From: an uncultured Pseudomonadota bacterium
Lineage (GTDB): Bacteria > Pseudomonadota > Alphaproteobacteria > JACZXZ01
Direction: 5' to 3'
Assembly: GCA_963749075.1 (NCBI GenBank)
Contig: CAVVLJ010000016.1
Coordinates: 640,001 to 704,000 of the forward strand
DNA: 64,000 nt
Position numbers and translations under genes: made by a program. Below the pieces are notes generated by a model. It saw nothing but the letters and a program-made list of their open reading frames with translations. It was not told the DNA's origin and ran no database searches. Positions 1,980 through 61,991 of this stretch are shown one piece after another (positions within the stretch are counted from its first letter, which is position 1; every line of letters starts with the position of its first letter).

Positions 1980-4311
1980 ATGAAACGCCTGGCGTTGCTG
2001 GTTCCGCTCCTTGTGCTCTCGCTGCCGTTGGGTGCTACGCCCGCGGCCGCGCAAGGGAACTTCATCATGCGCTCGCAGACGAACCGCACGGTCGATGCCA
2101 TCCAGAATCAGATCAGGCAGGCGGTGCGGCCGCACCTTGCGGTGCGCAATCCGGCGGGGGCCGTCGAGTCGATCGCCTTGAGCCAGGACGGCAAGCTCCT
2201 CGCCGTCGTCCTTGCCGACAACACGATCCGCGTCTTCGATCTGCAGGCGGGCGTGCAGCGCGCCCGCCTGACCGGCGGCAGGGGCCGCCTGCACGCCGCC
2301 GCGGTGACCGGCGACGACCGCTTCGTGCTGAGCGGCGGCGACGACGGCACGGTCGGCGTGTGGGATGCGGCGACGGGCGCCAAGCTGCGCGACCTCAGCG
2401 GGCACCGCGGCGCCGTGAACGCCATCGTCTCGGCCGCCGACGGCAGCGCCGTGGCGACGGCGGGGGCGGACGGCACGGTCCGCCTGTGGGCGCCGGCAAG
2501 CGGCCAGGCCCTTCGGGTGCTGAGCGGCCACAGCGGTCCCGTGCTCTCCCTCTCGTTCAGTGCGGACGGGCGCACGCTCTTGAGCGGCGGCGCCGACGGC
2601 AAGGCCATCCTGTGGAACCGCGCGGACGGCAAGCCCGAGGAGACGCTCGACGACCACGGCGGCAAGATCGTCGCCGTCGGCTTCGACAACAGCGGCCGCG
2701 GCGTCACCACGGACGAACAGGGCTCCGTGCATATCTGGGGGCAGAGGGGAGCCGGGCCCGCGCGGACCTTCCGCGGCACGCAGCAGGCCGTCGGCGCCGA
2801 GGTCACGGGCGACGGCCGCTACGTCGCGGTGAGCAGCCCCGACGGCCATGCGACGCTGCGCGACATCGAGAGCGGCCGGGTGCTCAAGGAATTCACGGCT
2901 CCCTCCGGCTCGGCGCAAATCGTCGTCGTCGACGTGCAGCGCCAGCGCCTGATCACGGGCGGCGCCGACGGCATGGTGCGCGTGTGGAACCTCGGCAGCG
3001 GCGCCAATCTGGCCCAGATCATCGCCACCTTGGGCGGCTGGGCCGTGCTCGAACTCCCAGGGCCGCTTCGACGGCTCGCAGCAAGGGGTCACCGACGTGG
3101 CGTGGATCGCCAACCAGGCCGCACTGCCGATCGACAATTTTTCGCAGCGCTACTACGAGCCGGGTCTCTTGGCCAAGGATTTCGCGGAGCGCCCTGCCTT
3201 CGCCTCCCAGCCCACGGCGGCGGTCTCCGACGGCATTTTCCTGCCGCCGCAGACCACCATCACGGTGGCGCCGGGCGGGCCCTACCAGCTTGGCCAGGCC
3301 ATCGACGTGACGGTCAACGCCGAGGACCGCGGCGGCAACATCGGCACGATTCGCCTCTTCCACAACGGCAAGCTCGTGCCCGGCGATTTCGCCACCCTGC
3401 ACGACGAAACGCGGAACAACGTCAAGGTGCGCCAGGCGGTCTACCGCGTGCAGCTCACGGCCGGCAGCAACATCTTCGAGGCCCTCGCCGTCAGCGACCA
3501 GGGCATCGACGGCGTGCCGGTGAGCGCCACCGTGACCGCACCCGGCACGCGCGCGCTCCCGACCCTCCATATCGTGACGATCGGCATCAACAAATACAAG
3601 GACGCGAGGCTCGACCTCAACTACGGCGTGCCCGACGCGCTGGCGGTGCTCAAGGCGTTCAACGTCTCGACCGCCTCCGTCTTCGCCAAGATCGTCGAAT
3701 ACCGGCTGACCGACGACGCGGCCAGCCGGCAGAACATCCTCGATCTCATGAAGGGCCTGCGCGGCGTGCGCGCGGACGACGAGGTCGTGATCTTCTACGC
3801 GGGGCACGGCGAGATCTTCAACAACCAGTGGTACCTCATCCCCTACGACGTGAACCTGGCGAGCGACGCCGACGCGGAGCGCAGCAGCATCTCGGCGAGC
3901 GAGCTTCGCGATGCCATCGTCCATATCGGCGCCGAGCGCATCATGATCTTCGTCGATGCCTGCAAGTCGGGCGGCAGCATCGAGACGCTTGCGAGCGCGC
4001 TCGACCGCAAGGTGCTGCGCGAGGTCGCGCGCGAGGCGGGCGTGGCGATCCTCGCCGCGACGCGGCGCGACCAGCTCGCGGCGGAGCTGCCCTCTCTCGG
4101 GCACGGCGCCTTCACCTATGTCGTGCTCGAAGGCCTGGCGGGCCGCGCCGACCGCGATCCCGCCGACGGCCAGATCACCGTGAGCAAGATACTGCGCTAC
4201 TCGATCGAGACGCTGCCGGCCATGACCGAGAAGCTGGGCAGCCTGCCGCAGGTGCCGGTCGCCTACCAGCGCGGCACCGACTTCGTCGTCAAGGCGGGGT
4301 TGGGGGGCTGA
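1980..4311 (+). CDS. Exported WD40-repeat + caspase-like (peptidase C14) protein, split by a +1 frameshift near 3052
   Basis: ORF 1980 has a signal peptide and about 7-8 WD40 repeats (SGHRGAVNAI..DG..VATAGADGTVRLW). ORF 3097 has an Ig-like segment and the caspase dyad motifs FYAGHG and FVDACKSG. Removing one A in GAACTCC (3051-3057) gives WAVLDSQGRFDGSQ and one ORF of about 776 aa. Confidence 0.85.
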
Positions 4312-4336: not shown

Positions 4337-5209
4337 ATGCCCGGCGGCCGTGCGCGCGCGGGTGCGCGGCACCTCGCCTCCGCCCTGATCGCGGCAGAGC
4401 TCGCACTCGGCTTGGCCGGCTGCGCCGCGGCGCGGCGGGAGCAGGCGCTCGCCGAGGCCGAGCGCATCGCGGCGCCCCACGGTCTCAAGCGGCAGCTCAT
4501 CCCGGCGGGCGACTTCACGCTCCTCTCCTATCAGCGTCTCTCTCCCGCCGGCGATGACCGCCTCGTCGTCTATCTCGAGGGCGACGGACTTGCCTGGATC
4601 AACCGCGGCCAGATATCCGACGATCCGACGCCCGAGGATCCGCTGGCCCTGCGCCTCGCGGCCGCGGACGATGCGGCGAGCGTCCTCTATCTCGCGCGGC
4701 CATGCCAGTTCGTCATGGCGAGCCATCCGCGCAACTGCGCGCCGCGCTACTGGTCGACCGCGCGCTACTCGGAGGAGGTCGTCGCCTCCGCCGGCCGGGC
4801 GATCGACCTGGTCGAGGCCGCAGCCGGCAAGCGCAAGCTCGAGCTCGTCGGCTATTCGGGAGGAGGGGTGCTGGCGGCCCTGCTCGCGGCGCGCCGCGAC
4901 GATGTGGTGCGCGTCATCGCGGTGGCGGCCGATCTGGACCTGCCGTCCTGGACCGCATACCATCATTTGACGCCGCTCGCGGAGTCCCTGAACCCGACCG
5001 ACTTCGCGGCACGGCTTGCCCGGGTTCCGCAGGTGATCTTCCTCGGCGAGCGCGACGACGTCGTGCCGCCTTCGGTCGTCCAGCACTACCGGTCGGCCCT
5101 GCCGGCGAGCGCTCCGATCGCGATCGTGCCGCTCGCGGGCTTCTCCCACGACTGCTGCTGGGTGGAGGCATGGCCCGCGCTTCTGCGCAAGGCGCGCGCG
5201 CTACCGTAG
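4337..5209 (+). CDS. Alpha/beta hydrolase lipoprotein
   Basis: Lipobox LAGC, VVYLEGDG motif, nucleophile elbow GYSGG, D in GERDDVV, H in FSHDCCW. Confidence 0.8.
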   Translation: MPGGRARAGARHLASALIAAELALGLAGCAAARREQALAEAERIAAPHGLKRQLIPAGDFTLLSYQRLSPAGDDRLVVYLEGDGLAWINRGQISDDPTPEDPLALRLAAADDAASVLYLARPCQFVMASHPRNCAPRYWSTARYSEEVVASAGRAIDLVEAAAGKRKLELVGYSGGGVLAALLAARRDDVVRVIAVAADLDLPSWTAYHHLTPLAESLNPTDFAARLARVPQVIFLGERDDVVPPSVVQHYRSALPASAPIAIVPLAGFSHDCCWVEAWPALLRKARALP

Positions 5210-17803: not shown

Positions 17804-19678
17804 TTACAGGAACCCGATCGAGAGCCAGGGGACGGCGGCGACGATGACGAGGGCGGCGAAGAGGGCGGCGAGATAGGGCCAGATGCGCCCCATGCTCTCG
17901 TCGGGCGAGACGCGGCCGATGGCGCAGGCCGCGTAGAAGCCGACGCCGAAGGGCGGGGCGAAGAGCCCGAGCCCCATGGCGAGGATCACCACCATGGCGT
18001 AATGCACCTCGTGCACGCCGAGGGCGCGCGCCACCGGGAAGAGGAGCGGCCCGAAGAGCACGATGGCGGGGATGCCCTCGAGCACGCTCCCGAGCACGAT
18101 GAAGACGGCGATCGAGATGGCGAGGAAGCCCGCGTGCCCGCCCGGCACCGCCGCCATCATGGTGACGAGCTGGTGCGAGAAGCCCGACTGGGTGAGCGCC
18201 CATGCCATCGCCGTCGCGGTGCCGATGATGAGGAGGATGGCGCCGGAGAGGGAAGCGGTCTCGATGAGGATGGGATAGAGCCGGCGCAAGGGGAACTGGC
18301 GATAGACGAGGATGCCGACGGCGACGGTATAGACGACGCCCACGGTCGACACCTCGGTCGCGGTCGCGACTCCTTCGATGACCGCGGCGCGGATGACGAA
18401 GGGCAGCACGAGTGCCGGCAGCGAGACCACGAAGGCGCGCAAGACCTCGCGGCCCGTGGCGCGGCGCACGCCGCGCATATCCTCGCCGCGCGAGCGGAAG
18501 AAGCACACCGCGACGAGGGCAAGGGCCGCGACGAGTGCCGGGAGGAGGCCGCCCGTGAAGAGTGCGGAGATCGAGACGCCGGTAACCGAGCCGATGGTGA
18601 TGAGCACCAGGCTCGGCGGGATCGTCTCGGCCATGGCGCCCGAGGAGGAGAGGAGGGCCACGAGCTCGCCCGGCTCGGCCCCGCGCCGCTTCATCTCGGG
18701 GAAGAGCACCGGCGCCACCGCCGCCATGTCCGCCGCCTTCGAGCCCGAGATGCCCGAGACGAGATAAATGGCGCCGAGCAGCACATAGGCGAGGCCGCCG
18801 CGCACGTGGCCCAAGAGCGAGGCGAGGAAATCGACGAGCACGCGCGCGAGCCCGGTCATCTCGATGAGGAGGCCCAGGAAGACGAAAAGCGGCACCGAGA
18901 GCAGCACCAGGTTCGACATGCCCTCGTCCATGCGGTTGACCACGATGGTGAGCGGCACGTGGGTGGCGAGCGCCAGGTAGGAGAGCGTCGCGACGCCGAA
19001 GGCGAAGGCGATCGGCACGCCGATGGCGACGCAGGCGCCGACGATCAGCACGAAGAAGATCACGAGATTGAGGTTGCCGATCGAGAGCAGCGCCGGCCGC
19101 GCGAGCCAGAGTGCCGCCGCGACGAGGCCGATGACGAGGAGGGAGCCGAGCGCCTCGCGCACGCTCGAGCGCCCGAAGAGGCGGAAGAGCGCGATCACCA
19201 TCATGAGGACGGCGCCAACCCCGATGGCGAGCACGCGCAGGCCGTCGTGGATCTCGAGCGCCGGCGTGATGATCGCCCATTCGCTCTCCACATAGGCCGC
19301 GGCCGAGGGGATGATCTCGATCACGAAGAGCGCCACCACCATCGCGGCGAGCGTATCGAGCCAGCGCCGGCGCGCGGCACCCGCGTAGCCCACGATCGCC
19401 GTGAGCCGCATGTGCTCCTCGCGGCGGAGGGCGATCACCGCACCCAGCATGGCGAGCCAGAGAAAGAGGATGGAGGCGAGCTCGTCCGACCAGGTGAGCG
19501 GCCGGTCGAAGACGTAGCGCGACACCACGCCCGCGAAAAGCACGATGGTCTCGACCACCACGAGGACCGCGGCCGGCAGCTCGGTGAGCCAGCCGAGCGT
19601 GCGCTCGAACCGCGGGAGCCGGTCGCGCATGATCGGCGCCGCGAAGCTAGTACTCACCATCGCTGAGGCCTGCGTCAC
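17804..19678 (-). CDS. TRAP transporter fused small/large permease (DctQM)
   Basis: DctQ part (WSDELA, EHMRL) fused to DctM (SGSKAAD, IPPS, ATEVS, PPFGVG). Start approximate. Confidence 0.9.
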   Translation of the reverse strand: MTQASAMVSTSFAAPIMRDRLPRFERTLGWLTELPAAVLVVVETIVLFAGVVSRYVFDRPLTWSDELASILFLWLAMLGAVIALRREEHMRLTAIVGYAGAARRRWLDTLAAMVVALFVIEIIPSAAAYVESEWAIITPALEIHDGLRVLAIGVGAVLMMVIALFRLFGRSSVREALGSLLVIGLVAAALWLARPALLSIGNLNLVIFFVLIVGACVAIGVPIAFAFGVATLSYLALATHVPLTIVVNRMDEGMSNLVLLSVPLFVFLGLLIEMTGLARVLVDFLASLLGHVRGGLAYVLLGAIYLVSGISGSKAADMAAVAPVLFPEMKRRGAEPGELVALLSSSGAMAETIPPSLVLITIGSVTGVSISALFTGGLLPALVAALALVAVCFFRSRGEDMRGVRRATGREVLRAFVVSLPALVLPFVIRAAVIEGVATATEVSTVGVVYTVAVGILVYRQFPLRRLYPILIETASLSGAILLIIGTATAMAWALTQSGFSHQLVTMMAAVPGGHAGFLAISIAVFIVLGSVLEGIPAIVLFGPLLFPVARALGVHEVHYAMVVILAMGLGLFAPPFGVGFYAACAIGRVSPDESMGRIWPYLAALFAALVIVAAVPWLSIGFL

Positions 19679-19716
19679 CCCCTCCCCCCTTGAGGGGGAG
19701 GGTTAGGGAGGGGGGT
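19678..19716. repeat. REP-like palindromic repeat (CCCTC hairpin family)
   Basis: CCCTCCCCC-CTTGA-GGGGGAGGG followed by TTAGGGAGGGGG; same hairpin-plus-tail layout as the copies at 35028, 39834 and 60386. Confidence 0.6.
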
Positions 19717-34954: not shown

Positions 34955-35027
34955 GCCGCTCTTCCTCCCCCTCAGCACCGGCGCAGCACGCTAAGTGCAA
35001 AGGTGCGGCCCGTCAACGGGCGTGATC

Positions 35028-35160
35028 CCCTCTCCTCCTTTAGGAGGAGAGGGTAAGGGTGAGGAGGTGGACGTGCAAAACATGTCGTCGGCACCGGGGC
35101 CTCCTCACCTTCCCATCCCTTCGGGATGGGCCCCTTCCTCTCCTCCTAAAGGAGGAGAGG
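35028..35160. repeat. Empty inverted REP pair (REPIN-like) with the same arms that flank the DUF559 gene
   Basis: CCCTCTCCTCCT-TT-AGGAGGAGAGGG-TAAGGGTGAGGAGG (35028-35067), 32-bp spacer, then the inverted arm CCTCCTCACC...CCTCTCCTCCT-AA-AGGAGGAGAGG (35100-35160). Confidence 0.85.
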
Positions 35161-35176
35161 AGAGCTGCCTTCACGC

Positions 35177-39736: not shown

Positions 39737-39833
39737 TTTCCGCTCCCTGTTCGCGGCGCGTAGACCGCCTTGCTCATTATGCGACTGAGCAGCTTAACCT
39801 ATTGAGCATTTTGTTCCAGCCTTGTCGAGTGTC

Positions 39834-39895
39834 TTCCCTCTCCCGTTTACGGGAGAGGGAAGGGGCCCATCGCAAAGCGATGGGAAGGGTGAGGG
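39834..39895. repeat. REP-like double-hairpin repeat (CCCTCTCC family)
   Basis: TTCCCTCTCCCGT-TT-ACGGGAGAGGGAA, then GGGGCCCATCGC-AAA-GCGATGGGAAGGGTGAGG; collinear with the reverse complement of 35100-35160. Confidence 0.8.
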
Positions 39896-39900
39896 AGCGC

Positions 39901-58685: not shown

Positions 58686-60365
58686 ATGGCCGAGGTCAAG
58701 AGCGACATCGAGATCGCGCGCGAGGCGCGCCTGCAGCCCATCGAGGCGATCGGCGCCAAGCTCGGCATTCCGGCCAACGCCCTCTTCCGCTTCGGCCATT
58801 ACAAGGCGAAGGTCAGCCTCGACCATGTGGCCAGCCTCAAGGACCGCCCCGACGGCAGGCTCGTGCTGGTCACCGCGATCACGCCGACGCCCGCGGGCGA
58901 GGGCAAGACGACGACGACGGTCGGCCTCGGCGACGCGCTCAACCGCATCGGCAAGGGCGCCGCGATCTGCCTGCGCGAGCCGAGCCTGGGGCCCTGTTTC
59001 GGCGTCAAGGGCGGGGCTGCCGGCGGCGGCTATGCCCAGGTGGTGCCCATGGAGGACATCAACCTGCATTTCACCGGCGATTTCCACGCCATCACGTCTG
59101 CCAACAACCTCCTCGCCGCCATGGTCGACAACCACGTCTATTGGGGCAATCCCCTCAACATCGACGTGCGCCGCATCAGCTGGCGCCGCGTGATCGACAT
59201 GAACGACCGGGCGCTGCGCGCAATCGTCTCCTCGCTCGGCGGTGCGGCCAACGGCTTTCCCCGCGAGGACGGCTTCGACATCACGGTCGCCTCCGAGGTG
59301 ATGGCGATCTTCTGCCTCTCCAAGGACATGAACGACCTCATGCATCGCCTCGGCAACATCGTCGTGGGCCAGACGCGTGAGCGGAAGCCCGTGCGCGCGC
59401 GCGAGCTCAAGGCCGACGGCTCGATGGCCGTGCTCCTCAAGGACGCGCTGGCGCCCAACCTGGTGCAGACCCTCGAGGGCAATCCCGCCTTCGTCCACGG
59501 CGGCCCCTTCGCCAACATAGCACACGGCTGCAACTCGGTGATGGCGACCACGACCGCGCTCAAGCTCGCCGACTACGTGGTGACCGAGGCGGGTTTCGGC
59601 GCCGACCTGGGCGCCGAGAAGTTCTTCGACATCAAGTGCCGCAAGGCGGGGCTCAAGCCCGAGGCGGTGGTCATCGTGGCGACCGTGCGGGCGCTCAAGA
59701 TGCACGGCGGCGTGGCGCGCGAGGAGCTCGGCAAGGAGAATCTCGCGGCACTCGACAAGGGCTTCGCCAACTTGAAGCGCCATCTCGAGAACCTCGGCCG
59801 CTTCGGCGTGCCGGCGGTGGTGGCGATCAACCGCTTCAACTCCGACACCGCGGCCGAGCACGAGCTCATCCGCAAGAAGTGCGGCGAGATCGGCACAGAG
59901 GCCGTCCTCTGCACCCATTGGGCCGAGGGGAGCAAGGGCACCGAGGCGCTCGCGCGCACCGTGGTCAAGCTCGTCGAGAGCAAGGCGGCGCAGTTCAAGT
60001 ACCTCTATCCCGACGACATGCCGCTTCTGGAGAAGGTGCGCACCATCGCGAAGACGCTCTACGGCGCCGCGGACATCGCGGCCGAGCAGCGCGTGCGCGA
60101 CCAGCTCAAGGACTACGAGAAGAGCGGCTACGGCCACTTCCCCGTGTGCATGGCCAAAACCCAGTACAGCTTCTCGACCGATCCCAATTTGAAGGGCGCT
60201 CCCTCGGGACACGTGCTCGCCGTGCGCGAGGTGCGCCTTGCCGGCGGCGCCGAGTTCGTCGTCGCCATCTGCGGCGAGATCATGACCATGCCCGGCCTGC
60301 CCCGCGAGCCCGCCGCGCACCGCATCCGCATCAACGAGCAAGGCCTGGTCGAGGGGCTGTTCTGA
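58686..60365 (+). CDS. fhs: Formate--tetrahydrofolate ligase
   Basis: [67 protein letters not shown]. Confidence 0.97.
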
Positions 60366-60385: not shown

Positions 60386-60870
60386 ACTCCCTCTCCTCCT
60401 TCAGGAGGAGAGGGTCGGGGTGAGGAGGCCTTCGAAGAACTCACCATGCCCGATCGCCAAACAAAGCAACGCCGCGCACCAGGCTCGAACGCCCGCGCCC
60501 GCGAGCTCCGCCGCGAGCAAACCAAAGCCGAGCAAAAACTCTGGCGCCTCCTCCGAGATCGCCAGCTCGAAGGGGCGAAATTCCGCCGCCAAATGCCGAT
60601 TGGACCCTATATCACCGACTTCGCCTGTCCGATCGCCCGTCTCGTCATCGAGCTCGATGGGGGTCAGCATGCCGATCAGCAGGCGCATGACGAGGCACGC
60701 ACGCGCATACTCGTCACGCAAGGCTATCGCGTGCTTCGCTTCTGGAACAACGAGGTGATGGAGAACCTCGAGGGCGTGGCGGAGGCGATACGGGCTGCGC
60801 TCCGGGCGTAACGGCTTGGCTTCGACACCTCCTCACCCCGACCCTCTCCTCCTAAAGGAGGAGAGGGAGT
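60386..60870. mobile_element. Putative REP-flanked DUF559 element (43-bp terminal inverted repeats around an endonuclease gene)
   Basis: Left ACTCCCTCTCCTCCTTCAGGAGGAGAGGGTCGGGGTGAGGAGG (60386-60428); the right arm (60828-60870) is its reverse complement with one loop mismatch. Confidence 0.65.
60446..60811 (+). CDS. DUF559 endonuclease (Vsr-like PD-(D/E)xK)
   Basis: ARELRR.QT.AE..LW..LR, KFRRQ.PIGPYI.DF.C, LVIELDGGQH, D..R...L...GYRVLRFWN. Confidence 0.92.
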   Translation: MPDRQTKQRRAPGSNARARELRREQTKAEQKLWRLLRDRQLEGAKFRRQMPIGPYITDFACPIARLVIELDGGQHADQQAHDEARTRILVTQGYRVLRFWNNEVMENLEGVAEAIRAALRA

Positions 60871-61991
60871 CATGCGAACTCGCGGCGGATCGCCGCGCTG
60901 TGCTCGCCCAAGGCGGGGACCTTGCCGAGGGGCTCGGCGGGCTCGTCCGGGTGGCGCACGGGAGGGGCGATGAGCTCGATGGCGCCGGCCTCGCTCGCGA
61001 CCGTGGTGCGGCGGAGCTGGGGATGGCGGCTCGCGGCGGCGACGCCGTTGAGCGTGCCGAAGGCGATGCCGAAGCGCCTGAGCTTGGCGATGAGAGCCTC
61101 GCGCTCGAGCGAGGTGAAGGTGCGGGCGATCACGGCGTCGAGTGCGGCGCGGTTGGCGAAGCGGTCGGGGGGGCCGGCGAAACGCGGGTCGTCGGCGAGT
61201 GCAGGATCCTCGAGCACGCCCGAGCAAAGTGCCCGCCACTCGCGCTCGTTCTGGATCGAGATGACGACGGGCTCGCCCCGCGTCGGGTAGGCGCCGTAGG
61301 GTGCGATCGAGTGGTGGCTGATGCCGACGCGCGGCACCACCACGCCGCTGTGGATGTACTGGAGGAGGAGGGGCGACATCCAGTCGGCGACGGTGTCGAA
61401 GAGCGAGACCTGCACCCCGCTGCCGCGCCCGCTCCGCGTGCGCGCATGGAGCGCCTCGAGGAGTGCCGAATAGGCGGTGAGGCCGGTCGAGATGTCGCAG
61501 ATCGAGACGCCGACGCGGCCCGGCGCCTCGGGCGTGCCCGTCACCGCGGCGAGGCCGCTTTCGGCCTGCACCAGGAGGTCGTAGGCCTTCATCTCGCGGT
61601 AGGGCCCCTCCTCGCCGTAGCCCGAGATGTCGCAGGTGACGAGACGCGGGTACGCCGCGCGCAAGTTCGCCGAGCCGAAGCCCGCGCGCTCGGCGGCACC
61701 GGGGGCGAGGTTCTGGATGAAGACGTCGGCTCTGGCGAGGATGCGGCCGAGGAGGCGGGCGTCCTCCGCCTCCTTGATGTCGAGCTGAAGCGACTCCTTG
61801 CCGCGGTTGAGCCAGACGAAATACGAGCAAAGCCCGTTGACATAGTCGTCGTAGCGCCGCGCGAAGTCGCCCTCGGGCCGCTCGATCTTGATGACGCGCG
61901 CGCCGGCGTCGGCGAACTTGACGCTGCAGAAGGGTGCGGCGACCGCCTGCTCGAGGGAGACGACGAGGAGGCCTGACAGCGGCTTCGTCAC
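60870..61991 (-). CDS. CaiB/BaiF family CoA-transferase
   Basis: LEQAVAAP, GARVIKIERPEGD, NRGKES, ADVFIQN, ISGYG, P.LGEH; GTG start 61991. Confidence 0.92.
   Translation of the reverse strand: MTKPLSGLLVVSLEQAVAAPFCSVKFADAGARVIKIERPEGDFARRYDDYVNGLCSYFVWLNRGKESLQLDIKEAEDARLLGRILARADVFIQNLAPGAAERAGFGSANLRAAYPRLVTCDISGYGEEGPYREMKAYDLLVQAESGLAAVTGTPEAPGRVGVSICDISTGLTAYSALLEALHARTRSGRGSGVQVSLFDTVADWMSPLLLQYIHSGVVVPRVGISHHSIAPYGAYPTRGEPVVISIQNEREWRALCSGVLEDPALADDPRFAGPPDRFANRAALDAVIARTFTSLEREALIAKLRRFGIAFGTLNGVAAASRHPQLRRTTVASEAGAIELIAPPVRHPDEPAEPLGKVPALGEHSAAIRREFA

What the first reader, a model, noticed from the sequence alone, without database searches (positions are those of the whole stretch)
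60386..60870. DUF559 endonuclease bracketed by 43-bp inverted hairpin repeats: candidate autonomous element of a non-RAYT REP/REPIN system
Seen in sequence: the 121-aa DUF559 gene sits between two 43-bp arms that are reverse complements except for one loop base. Each arm is a 12-bp-stem hairpin plus a GGGGTGAGGAGG tail. The unit lies between convergent fhs and the CoA-transferase gene. An empty version with nearly the same arms and a 32-bp spacer is at 35028-35160, and single arms are at 19678 and 39834. Established: HUH RAYT transposase genes are flanked by REPs and spread gene-less REPINs. Inference: a Vsr-like PD-(D/E)xK nuclease plays the RAYT role for this CCCTCTCC hairpin family, nicking or cutting the hairpins to spread them. 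I am not aware of a mechanistic description, but did not search the literature.
Basis: partly seen in the sequence, partly recalled or inferred. Interest (0 to 1): 0.8.

Follow-up and report, generated by a model that had tools for sequence, protein, structure and literature searches.

The report
Nuclease gene bracketed by triplex repeats
A small DUF559 nuclease gene sits between two inverted copies of a known but unexplained bacterial repeat (BoxC/PIT triplex motif), and the same pairing recurs across many bacterial phyla, which points to this nuclease as the repeat's long-missing partner enzyme.

Summary
A 121-aa DUF559 gene (60446-60811) lies between two 43-nt arms that differ by one loop base.

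Each is a pyrimidine/purine hairpin plus a tail that mirrors the purine arm. That is the architecture of BoxC/PIT/TM_ECO intrastrand-triplex repeats. The authors of the main survey found no mobility gene for them.

The pairing is general. Among 79 relatives (50-69% identity, many phyla) with enough flank on that side, 60 have a correctly oriented arm upstream and 52 downstream. Control windows give 93 of 7646. The published TM_ECO consensus is 34-fold enriched within 150 bp of the gene. E. coli ycjD also has such a motif beside it.

The closest relative carries near-identical arms around a 75%-identical gene in a different genomic context. Homology ends at the outer hairpin edges.

The gene is mostly syntenic among relatives. 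It is low-copy while the repeats are many, as with RAYT/REPIN.

I found no paper linking DUF559 to these repeats.

No data show what the nuclease does. Homing, biased repair and mobilisation all remain open.

The parts
60386..60428 (+). Left arm. It is a triplex-type repeat: pyrimidine arm CCCTCTCCTCCT, purine arm AGGAGGAGAGGG (hairpin 60389-60414), loop TCG, then tail GGGTGAGGAGG (60418-60428). The tail mirrors the purine arm at 11 of 11 positions, with one A replaced by T. The tail points toward the gene.
60446..60811 (+). DUF559 gene, 121 aa plus stop. It is a Vsr-like PD-(D/E)xK nuclease with the candidate catalytic residues D58, E69, D71 and H75 present.
   Evidence: Pfam PF04480 E=3e-44. 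PDB 3HRL E=5e-27. These residues are invariant in 32 homologues. The start codon agrees with the closest homologues.
60828..60870 (-). Right arm, the reverse complement of the left arm apart from one loop base. Its tail also points toward the gene. It abuts the stop codon of the CoA-transferase gene.
35026..35068 (+). Left arm of a gene-less inverted pair, of the same subtype as the arms around the gene.
35100..35161 (-). Right arm of the gene-less pair, after a 32-bp spacer (35068-35099). It is a composite: tail 35100-35111, extra hairpin 35112-35130, main hairpin 35136-35161.
19680..19714 (+). Single repeat of another subtype (CCCTCCCCCC ... GGGGGAGGG TTA GGGAGGGGG), in the gap between the TRAP transporter genes.
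39833..39897 (+). Single composite repeat. The main hairpin is 39833-39862, followed by a second hairpin CCCATCGC-AAA-GCGATGGG, then the tail GGGTGAGGGAG (39887-39897).

Best explanation
The 485-bp unit is the protein-coding member of the BoxC/PIT/TM family of triplex-type repeats. It consists of a resident, low-copy DUF559 (YcjD-type, Vsr-like) nuclease gene set between two inward-facing copies of its own repeat. Many gene-less pairs and single copies lie elsewhere in the genome. In organisation it resembles a RAYT gene flanked by its REPs.

Shown:
- the anatomy;
- the generality and specificity of the association;
- the co-variation of the two arms;
- the unit boundaries at the outer hairpin edges;
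- the low gene copy number against many repeats.

Inferred:
- The nuclease recognises the repeat, either as sequence (the GGGTGAGG tail is strikingly constant) or as a folded hairpin or triplex on single-stranded or extruded DNA, and nicks or cuts there.
- Repair of those breaks, copied from other repeat copies, keeps the repeats uniform. The arms are about 100% identical between two genomes whose nuclease genes are only 75% identical.
- That repair now and then copies a repeat pair, with or without the gene, to a new place.

I favour break-and-repair (homing-like) spread over a transposase-like cut-and-join. Hydrolytic nicking and homing are the activities documented for this fold.
For: Anatomy.

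Repeat class: the published description and consensus are in PMC4666352. The mirror relation of tail to purine arm can be read directly from the sequence.

Generality, in 80 loci from genome contigs:
- A strict detector finds 5-9 repeats per kb within 50 bp of the gene ends, against 0-0.16 per kb beyond 500 bp.
- A relaxed detector finds a correctly oriented arm upstream in 60 of 79, downstream in 52 of 79, and on both sides in 42 of 77. Control windows give 93 of 7646.
- Counted per distinct genomic context, the figures are 37 of 54, 36 of 54 and 26 of 52.
- The published TM_ECO regex gives 48 of 78 matches within gene +-150 bp, which is 4.5% of the DNA. That is 34-fold enrichment. 37 tails point toward the gene and 11 away.

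Specificity: 26 of 27 inward pairs at gene-size spacing enclose DUF559.

Arm co-variation:
- Same-locus left and right arms score 0.75 in similarity against 0.475 between loci, with 0 of 2000 permutations reaching this.
- Distant repeats resemble their own locus's arms, 0.41 against 0.30, with 0 of 2000 permutations.
- Paralogues within one genus carry different arm types, while 82%-identical orthologues share one.

Discrete unit: window against L002.

RAYT-like population structure:
- There are 56 genomic contexts for 81 units, and units of 83% identity or more are nearly always syntenic.
- Large replicons hold one place each.
- An S. meliloti chromosome-size record has at least 40 repeat places and one gene. 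pSymB records have 12-18 repeats and no gene hit.

E. coli:
- ycjD is 57% identical to the window protein.
- It has a perfect TM_ECO 170 bp downstream.
- In an evenly spaced sample, 37 ycjD+ genomes have 17-29 repeat places and 23 ycjD- genomes have 2-16.

More distant homologues in cyanobacteria, Deinococcus, Sinorhizobium, Sphingomonas and Photobacterium also have lineage-specific repeats of the same architecture beside the gene (by inspection).

The catalytic residues are invariant.
Against: - There is no biochemical or genetic evidence for any activity of a DUF559 protein on these repeats.
- The E. coli contrast is confounded by phylogeny. ycjD marks phylogroups A, B1 and C (PMC12817139), so there are only a few independent events.
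- Repeats persist in lineages without ycjD, at 2-16 places per genome. The hrpB-mrcB repeat pair is present in O157-like genomes that lack ycjD.
- E. coli ycjD itself has no clean arms. It has a degenerate one at its stop codon and none upstream.
- 11 of 77 relatives show no arm with my detector, although several of these have arms by eye.
- Orientation is reversed in Azospirillum, Deinococcus and Synechocystis.
- Units are mostly syntenic among relatives. I saw no near-identical units at different sites and no target-site duplication, so recent mobility is not shown.
- Holder et al. report that in vivo footprinting did not support a stable triplex (passage).
- A hydrolytic nuclease alone cannot explain insertion at naive sites (my recollection of the fold's chemistry).
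Confidence: 0.5

Rival explanations
1. Homing-type selfish gene. DUF559 is a free-standing homing endonuclease whose target is a gene-less repeat pair. It cuts the pair and is copied into the spacer by repair, using the arms as homology. Something else creates and disperses the repeats.
For: - The gene always sits in the spacer of a pair. Gene-less pairs in the same orientation with 16-35 bp spacers exist in the window, in E. coli K-12 (4 of 5 pairs) and in the loci (16 short inward pairs).
- A homing endonuclease is grouped with Vsr and DUF559 in one PD-(D/E)xK clade (PMC3424549 table; I-Bth0305I abstract in the listing).
- The gene occurs between both pair orientations.
Against: - Gene-less and filled pairs of the same subtype coexist in one genome (window). 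The gene stays at one or two copies while dozens of repeats remain empty. Active homing should fill them.
- Units are mostly syntenic.
- This model leaves the spread of the repeats unexplained.
- No sequence similarity to the homing-enzyme structure was detected at E<=1.
Confidence: 0.2
2. Repair-type maintenance without mobility. Like Vsr, the protein nicks next to a mismatch in a specific sequence context, here the repeat. Mutated or heteroduplex repeats are thereby corrected back to consensus. This preserves the repeats and over-represents them but does not move them.
For: - Vsr is the closest characterised relative, and its role is context-specific T/G mismatch nicking (PMC3424549 passages).
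- The arms are much better conserved than the gene between them.
- Holder et al. note an 'extraordinary degree of identity' among the 23 E. coli copies.
- One subfamily keeps a fixed G.A mismatch in the hairpin (Table 1 type 'A mm'; also L004, L008, L039, L040).
- Units are mostly syntenic.
Against: - It does not explain why the gene is bracketed by repeats, nor how repeats reach new sites or other replicons.
- The Vsr model scores only 18.4 bits against a cut-off of 97.85.
- The window's arms have no mismatch.
Confidence: 0.15
3. Passive or regulatory association. The repeats act as insulators or as expression or translation signals for a potentially toxic nuclease gene, or they simply accumulate beside it. 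The protein has another target, for example foreign or modified DNA.
For: - The tail often lies 4-15 nt before the start codon and contains GAGG.
- Source annotations call many homologues DNA methylase or very-short-patch-repair endonuclease.
- There are weak PADLOC hits to DpdF and to a methyl-directed restriction enzyme.
Against: - The same architecture recurs on both sides of the gene across phyla, with lineage-specific sequences.
- The repeats are overwhelmingly found away from any DUF559 gene.
- Earlier work cited by Holder et al. found no promoter or terminator activity.
- Among about 1.1 Mb of flanking DNA, only one other gene is bracketed in the same way.
Confidence: 0.1

Closest known systems
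BoxC / PIT / TM_ECO intrastrand-triplex repeats (Holder et al. 2015, PMC4666352; earlier BoxC and PIT work known to me only through that paper)
   Same: - The architecture is the same: pyrimidine arm, loop, purine arm, loop, purine-rich mirror tail (class II purine motif).
- They are intergenic.
- They occur singly and as inverted pairs.
- They carry the GGGTGAGGG-type tail.
- They are widespread in Proteobacteria and cyanobacteria.
   Different: - The window's arms have 12-nt stems ending in TCCT and 2-3 nt loops. They do not match the strict published consensus (0 matches).
- Two of the window's six copies carry a second hairpin in loop 2.
- The paper reports no associated gene.
REP/REPIN-RAYT systems
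   Same: - A low-copy, mostly vertically inherited nuclease gene is flanked by its own short palindromic repeats.
- There are many gene-less inverted doublets and singles.
- No target-site duplication is seen.
   Different: - The enzyme is a PD-(D/E)xK Vsr-like nuclease, not an HUH tyrosine transposase.
- The repeats have a third, mirror-symmetric segment.
- The chemistry for strand joining is not evident.
Vsr very-short-patch repair endonuclease
   Same: It belongs to the same PD-(D/E)xK clade (PMC3424549). The protein is small and has a single domain.
   Different: - The match falls below the Vsr family cut-off (18.4 against 97.85 bits).
- No cytosine methyltransferase partner was seen next to it.
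- It is bracketed by repeats.
I-Bth0305I-type (EDxHD) homing endonucleases
   Same: It is a Vsr-like catalytic fold used by a selfish gene that sits inside its own target.
   Different: - Those enzymes are intron-encoded in phage.
- No sequence similarity was detected here.
- The DUF559 gene is chromosomal, syntenic and low-copy.
E. coli YcjD and N. gonorrhoeae 3HRL (DUF559 proteins of unknown function)
   Same: They belong to the same subfamily. YcjD is 57% identical and 3HRL matches at E=5e-27. ycjD also has a TM_ECO repeat beside it.
   Different: - ycjD has lost clean arms.
- The gonococcal gene has only a degenerate repeat, plus direct repeats of about 70 bp.

Membership tests
DUF559 (Pfam PF04480) | Match to the family model above the curated cut-off | tested here: met
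   149.8 bits against a 20.6 cut-off, E=3e-44, covering 105 of 109 model positions
DUF559 (Pfam PF04480) | Conserved acidic and histidine residues of the Vsr-like active site | tested here: met
   D58, E69, D71 and H75 are invariant in an alignment of 32 homologues. Their assignment as catalytic is by analogy and was not tested.
YcjD equivalog (NCBIfam PRK09767) | Score above the equivalog cut-off | tested here: not met
   118.6 bits against a 218 cut-off. It is the same subfamily but not the E. coli equivalog.
Vsr (TIGR00632) | Score above the family cut-off | tested here: not met
   18.4 bits against 97.85
Vsr (TIGR00632) | Partner cytosine-5 methyltransferase gene next to it | tested here: not met
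   The neighbours are fhs and a CoA-transferase. No methyltransferase is among the 35 further window ORFs scanned.
BoxC/PIT/TM intrastrand-triplex repeat | Pyrimidine arm, complementary purine arm, then a third segment mirroring the purine arm (G with G, A with A or T) | tested here: met
   The hairpin has 12 bp. The tail mirrors the purine arm at 11 of 11 positions after a 3-nt loop.
BoxC/PIT/TM intrastrand-triplex repeat | Strict TM_ECO consensus CCCTCNCCC N3-6 GGGNGAGGG N3 GGGNGAGGG | tested here: not met
   0 matches in the window. The arms are a longer-stem variant. 39 of the 80 related loci do hold strict matches.
BoxC/PIT/TM intrastrand-triplex repeat | Forms a triplex as single-stranded DNA | not testable with these tools
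   The folding tool models hairpins only. In vitro triplex formation is reported for the E. coli motif in PMC4666352 (abstract).
REP/REPIN-RAYT system | Flanked gene encodes an HUH tyrosine transposase | tested here: not met
   The Pfam hits are DUF559 and MTES_1575 only.
REP/REPIN-RAYT system | Low-copy, vertically inherited gene flanked by its repeats, with many gene-less inverted doublets elsewhere | tested here: met
MITE / insertion sequence | Terminal inverted repeats with target-site duplication and a transposase | tested here: not met
   Inverted arms are present. No direct duplication is seen at the window, L002 or the E. coli empty site. No transposase is among the scanned ORFs.
Homing endonuclease gene | Cleaves the gene-less allele and is copied into it | not testable with these tools
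   Gene-less pairs exist, but no cleavage or conversion data are available.

The most novel reading that the evidence does not exclude
DUF559/YcjD proteins are the cognate nucleases of the BoxC/PIT/TM triplex-forming repeats. Together they would form a second repeat-enzyme partnership, independent of RAYT, that spans Proteobacteria, cyanobacteria, Deinococcus and other phyla. In it, a Vsr-fold nuclease reads a folded hairpin or triplex and drives the spread and homogenisation of the repeats by break-and-repair copying.
Probability: 0.35. Interest if true: 0.9.

Novelty: new variant of a known kind. Interest (0 to 1): 0.8.

Why it matters
BoxC/PIT/TM repeats have been known in E. coli since the 1990s. 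According to PMC4666352 they occur thousands of times across hundreds of genomes. The authors tied them to local genome instability but found no gene that could move or maintain them.

DUF559 is a very large family with a solved structure and no function. More than 7,900 clusters matched here.

A specific, cross-phylum link between the two gives each orphan a candidate partner. It also makes both questions directly testable in E. coli K-12, with one protein and 23 defined sites.

If the nuclease reads a folded triplex or hairpin, it would also be a rare case of a protein that targets non-B DNA in bacteria.

Tried and rejected
- **Rfam.** No family reached the gathering score in the window. Permissive hits on the arms are chance-level miRNA and sRNA models.
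- **Promoter and terminator scan of the unit.** It found nothing in the unit.
- **PADLOC.** Only weak partial hits, with no defence-system assignment.
- **Mirror against direct-repeat test of the tail.** The result is weak: mirror is better in 64 cases, direct in 38, with 70 ties. Most purine arms are themselves mirror-symmetric. Only asymmetric stems (window, L002, the CCTTCCCC types) clearly favour the mirror.
- **E. coli empty-site comparison at hrpB-mrcB.** The presence/absence polymorphism is real, but the junction is not clean. There is no target duplication and no mechanistic clue.
- **E. coli ycjD against repeat count.** Separation is complete in 60 sampled genomes, but phylogeny confounds it. 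I treat it as consistent evidence, not as proof.
- **Plasmid search.** Only 33 of 72,556 records match, mostly chromids or chromosome-size records. This gives no support for plasmid-borne spread.
- **Supplementary tables of PMC4666352.** They could not be searched. They may list ycjD as a flanking gene.
- **Chance.** Rejected.
- **Not done.** A genome-wide arm count in the source genome was not possible, because the genome is not in the collection; the best relative is 69% identical.
Full report
**1. The observation**

The left arm is 60386-60428. It has a perfect 12-bp hairpin CCCTCTCCTCCT/AGGAGGAGAGGG at 60389-60414, followed by TC and the tail GGGGTGAGGAGG. The right arm, 60828-60870, is its reverse complement. 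Written on the same strand, the two 43-mers differ at one loop base.

Between the arms lies a 121-aa ORF, 60446-60811, that matches Pfam DUF559 at E=3e-44. One search had failed on a one-base coordinate slip.

The unit fills the gap between two convergent genes. fhs ends at 60365. A CoA-transferase III gene on the other strand has its stop at 60870-60872.

- a gene-less inverted pair at 35028-35067 and 35100-35161, with a 32-bp spacer;
- a single copy at 19680-19714;
- a single copy at 39833-39897.

Two details were missed. The right arm of the gene-less pair and the copy at 39833 each carry a second small hairpin (CCCATC...GATGGG) between the main hairpin and the tail.

The hairpin pattern occurs 4 times in the window and in none of 100 shuffles.

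**2. What the arms are**

The tail is not arbitrary. After a 3-nt loop, GGGTGAGGAGG is the mirror image of the purine arm GGAGGAGAGGG at 11 of 11 positions, with one A replaced by T.

A pyrimidine arm, a purine arm and a mirror-image purine tail make up the class II purine-motif intrastrand triplex. Holder et al. 2015 describe it (PMC4666352; I read the abstract, sections 3, 12, 15, 16 and 18, and passages from term searches).

That paper identifies the E. coli form with the older BoxC and PIT elements. It gives the consensus CCCTCNCCC N3-6 GGGNGAGGG N3 GGGNGAGGG. It counts 3610 copies in 262 proteobacterial genomes and 23 in E. coli K-12, five of them as inverted pairs, and it reports triplex formation in vitro. 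[quoted passage not shown] The words DUF559, ycjD and endonuclease do not occur in its main text.

The window's arms share the architecture but are a longer-stem variant. They do not match the strict consensus (0 matches).

**3. The protein**

The only solved relative is 3HRL, a Neisseria gonorrhoeae 'endonuclease-like protein' (E=5e-27).

A survey of PD-(D/E)xK nucleases places Vsr, DUF559 and DUF2726 in one clade. That clade includes the structures 1cw0, 3hrl and 3r3p and an entry for a group I intron homing endonuclease (PMC3424549, table passage).

In an alignment of 32 homologues, D58, E69, D71, Q74 and H75 are invariant. A working active site is therefore plausible.

The protein falls far below the Vsr family cut-off (18.4 against 97.85 bits). 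It hits the E. coli YcjD model below its equivalog cut-off. It is 57% identical to YcjD over 100 residues.

The family is very large and well conserved. 7975 of 8000 scored candidates matched. Identities of 60-70% extend to proteins labelled Alphaproteobacteria, Chloroflexi, Dormibacteraeota and Binatia.

Many homologues have N- or C-terminal extensions that read like translated arms, such as PLAGEGKGEG and DPHPSLSLKGRG. That was the first hint that the pairing is general.

**4. Test of generality**

One scan of the species-genome collection returned 80 loci with relatives of 50-69% identity. They come from Alpha-, Beta- and Gammaproteobacteria, Terriglobia, Binatia, Rokubacteria and others. 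The source genome itself is not in the collection.

*Strict detector.* I wrote a detector for the three-part architecture. It requires a stem of at least 7, a mirror tail of at least 8, and at most one mismatch in each. It recovers the canonical window copies. It found 210 repeats in 1.19 Mb.

Density is 5-9 per kb within 50 bp of the gene ends. Beyond 500 bp it is 0-0.16 per kb. Orientation is strongly biased. All 24 repeats overlapping the start region, and 17 of 27 in the next 50 bp upstream, have the tail toward the gene. So do 32 of 37 in the first 50 bp downstream.

*Relaxed detector.* This version allows inserts in loop 2. It finds a correctly oriented arm upstream in 60 of 79 genes with enough flank, downstream in 52 of 79, on both sides in 42 of 77, and on neither side in 11 of 77. 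Strand-specific control windows more than 1.2 kb from the gene give 93 of 7646. Suppose all control hits lay in intergenic DNA, and intergenic DNA were about 12% of the sequence (my assumption). The control rate would then still be only about 10%.

Several of the 11 loci scored as having no arm do have arms by eye, for example L013, L014 and L040.

*Counting each genomic context once.* The figures become 37 of 54, 36 of 54 and 26 of 52.

*Published regex, independent of my detector.* It places 48 of its 78 matches within gene +-150 bp. That region is 4.5% of the DNA, so the enrichment is 34-fold. 37 tails point toward the gene and 11 away.

**5. Specificity, co-variation and boundaries**

Among adjacent GC-rich repeats, 27 inward-facing pairs lie 151-2000 bp apart. 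26 of them enclose a DUF559 gene. The exception encloses a MacB/FtsX-like permease next to a repeat cluster.

The left and right arms of one gene resemble each other more than arms of different genes do. Similarity is 0.75 against 0.475. None of 2000 permutations reaches this, and 14 of 42 arm pairs have identical cores.

Repeats elsewhere in a locus resemble that locus's own arms, 0.41 against 0.30, with 0 of 2000 permutations. Some of the 57 distant hits in that test are spurious AT-rich matches.

In Allosphingosinicella, orthologues of 82% identity share CCCCTCCC-type arms. Paralogues of 52-54% identity in the same genomes carry CCCTCTCCC-type arms.

The most telling comparison is with the closest relative, L002.
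- The arms are identical at 43 of 43 positions on one side and about 41 of 42 on the other.
- The ORF between them is about 75% identical in DNA and 69% in protein.
- Homology stops at the outer edge of each hairpin.
- The flanking genes are different: a solute-binding-like ORF and an IlvD/Edd-like ORF, judged from the translations.

The unit is therefore a discrete module bounded by the repeats. The repeats are held more tightly than the gene. No target-site duplication is visible.

**6. Population structure**

The 81 units fall into 56 flank-homology contexts. Units of 83% DNA identity or more nearly always share their flanks. Examples are nine Rhodanobacter/Dyella loci, five or six Azospirillum loci, and groups in Methylococcaceae and Sulfuricella.

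There are a few exceptions. L014-L044 are 87.6% identical, L050-L071 are 82.7%, and L004-L008 are 82.1%. Two Hyphobacterium chromosomes carry units 77% identical. None of these pairs shows flank homology.

Inheritance is therefore mostly vertical, with occasional relocation.

In the plasmid collection only 33 of 72,556 records hold a relative. Most are chromids or chromosome-size records, with one place each, and two places in three Sinorhizobium records.

pSymB records have 12-18 repeat places and no gene hit.

One gene with dozens of repeats, spread over several replicons, is the pattern described for RAYTs and REPINs in the abstracts listed.

**7. E. coli as a natural experiment**

*The ycjD locus in K-12.*
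- ycjD has a degenerate hairpin at its stop codon.
- A duplicated fragment of its own 3' end follows.
- A perfect TM_ECO lies 170 bp downstream. This is motif no. 9 in Holder's Table 1.
- With 23 motifs in 4.6 Mb, chance proximity within 200 bp is about 0.2% by my arithmetic.

*Pairs in K-12.* Four of the five pairs face inward with 16-27 bp spacers, like the window's gene-less pair.

*Distribution of ycjD.* It is present in 3378 of 5426 complete genomes. Where it is absent, the sapF-fabI interval holds a TetR/RND efflux operon. This is published as eefRABCD. In that paper ycjD is confined to phylogroups A, B1 and C plus two sequence types, and no link to repeats is drawn (PMC12817139, passages).

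*Repeat counts.* All 5426 genomes hold the motif, at 1-31 places with a median of 18. In an evenly spaced sample of 60 genomes, 37 with ycjD have 17-29 places, a count that includes the ycjD locus. The 23 without ycjD have 2-16.

*Caveats.* The separation is complete, but it rests on few independent events. Repeats also persist without the gene. The hrpB-mrcB pair is missing in 10 of 29 sampled chromosomes, yet it is present in O157-like genomes that lack ycjD. The empty site gives no clean junction.

**8. More distant relatives**

I inspected eight homologues of 44-59% identity from the plasmid collection (by eye).

| Organism | Repeats beside the gene |
|---|---|
| Picosynechococcus, Pseudanabaena | Inward arms with C5-6/G5-6 stems and G-run tails |
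| S. meliloti, Sphingomonas | Inward arms of their own types |
| Deinococcus, Synechocystis B12 | Arms with tails outward |
| Photobacterium | Downstream arm only |
| N. gonorrhoeae | Degenerate copy, plus direct repeats of about 70 bp |

The architecture persists while the sequence changes with lineage.

**9. How it most likely works**

*Shown.* DUF559 genes of this subfamily and triplex-type repeats form a specific, ancient, co-varying unit. The gene is low-copy and mostly vertically inherited. Gene-less repeats are many.

*Inferred.* I infer that the nuclease acts on the repeats. The constant GGGTGAGG tail, with T at a fixed position, argues for sequence reading in addition to any structural constraint.

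I consider break-and-repair copying the most likely route (confidence 0.5 for the partnership as a whole). Hydrolytic nicking and homing are the documented activities of this fold. This route also explains why the arms are homogenised.

*Rivals.*
- A pure homing gene that targets gene-less pairs (0.2). The coexistence of empty and filled pairs weakens it.
- Vsr-like biased repair that maintains the repeats but does not move them (0.15). A conserved G.A mismatch in one subfamily is suggestive here.
- A passive or regulatory association (0.1).

I saw no duplication, no recent copies and no joining chemistry.

**10. Known or new**

The repeat class is known. The protein family is known, but its function is not.

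I found no paper linking the two. The searches were:
- DUF559 (25 papers held, 22 listed);
- the tail 9-mer with 'repeat';
- RAYT/Vsr combinations;
- triplex/BoxC/PIT/ycjD/DUF559 combinations (no paper holds a repeat term together with a gene term);
- ycjD;
- 'intrastrand triplex' since 2015;
- COG2852/PF04480/IPR007569.

The library omits most subscription journals. The original BoxC and PIT papers and the supplements of PMC4666352 were not seen.

I rate the finding a new variant of a known kind: a repeat-enzyme partnership like REP-RAYT, but with a different enzyme fold and a different repeat structure.

**11. Limits**

- All functional statements are inference.
- The loci were chosen by the protein. 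The reverse question, how many repeat-rich genomes lack the gene, is open except in E. coli.
- The genome-wide arm count in the source organism, and the fhs-CoA-transferase interval in relatives, could not be examined.
- The Pfam scan of the window covered 37 ORFs and left 43.9-49.9 kb and 52-54.5 kb unscanned.

Noticed in passing
window 35112-35130 and 39866-39884; also L013, L037: A second, conserved small hairpin (CCCATC..GATGGG) sits in loop 2, between the purine arm and the mirror tail. It occurs in two of the window's six repeats and in arms of other alphaproteobacterial loci. Other lineages have different GC-rich hairpins at the same spot (L028, L075, L071, L015). Loop 2 looks like a preferred insertion or variable site.
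   Followed up: partly
L029 and L051 upstream arms; L049 downstream; L081: A different repeat of about 50 nt (beginning GACGACTGCATGGATGCAGG...) is inserted between hairpin and tail of the arm in Rhodanobacter loci. It recurs near the gene in unrelated loci. It may be another small mobile element that targets loop 2.
   Followed up: no
L001 7300-7420 (E. coli K-12, downstream of ycjD): A fragment duplicating the last ~50 nt of ycjD (GAGACGGTGCTGGAGAATATTC...) lies between the degenerate hairpin at the ycjD stop codon and the intact TM_ECO. It looks like the remnant of a second gene copy or of a rearrangement.
   Followed up: no
L048 3064-3438 and 5677-6084: Two DUF559 units lie 2.2 kb apart on one Allosphingosinicella contig. 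They are 53% identical and each has its own arm type.
   Followed up: partly
L088 about 1830-1900 and 2470-2530 (N. gonorrhoeae record): The gonococcal DUF559 gene, the species of structure 3HRL, is flanked by direct repeats of about 70 bp. Each ends in a degenerate CCCTCTCCC hairpin.
   Followed up: no
E. coli strain ETEC6, hit H151: ycjD is interrupted by an IS1 element in this genome.
   Followed up: no
Holder Table 1; L004, L008, L039, L040: One repeat subfamily keeps a fixed G.A mismatch in the hairpin (CCCTCGCCCC against GGGGAGAGGG). It occurs in 13 of 23 E. coli copies and in unrelated taxa. That is odd for a hairpin, and suggestive given that the partner protein is related to a mismatch endonuclease.
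   Followed up: no
window 3097-4308: An ORF with a caspase-type peptidase C14 domain (E=6e-12) lies among ordinary metabolic and signalling genes.
   Followed up: no
L009 about 4540-4600: A run of N (a masked stretch) interrupts the region just upstream of the left arm in this locus, so its upstream repeat cluster could not be read fully.
   Followed up: no
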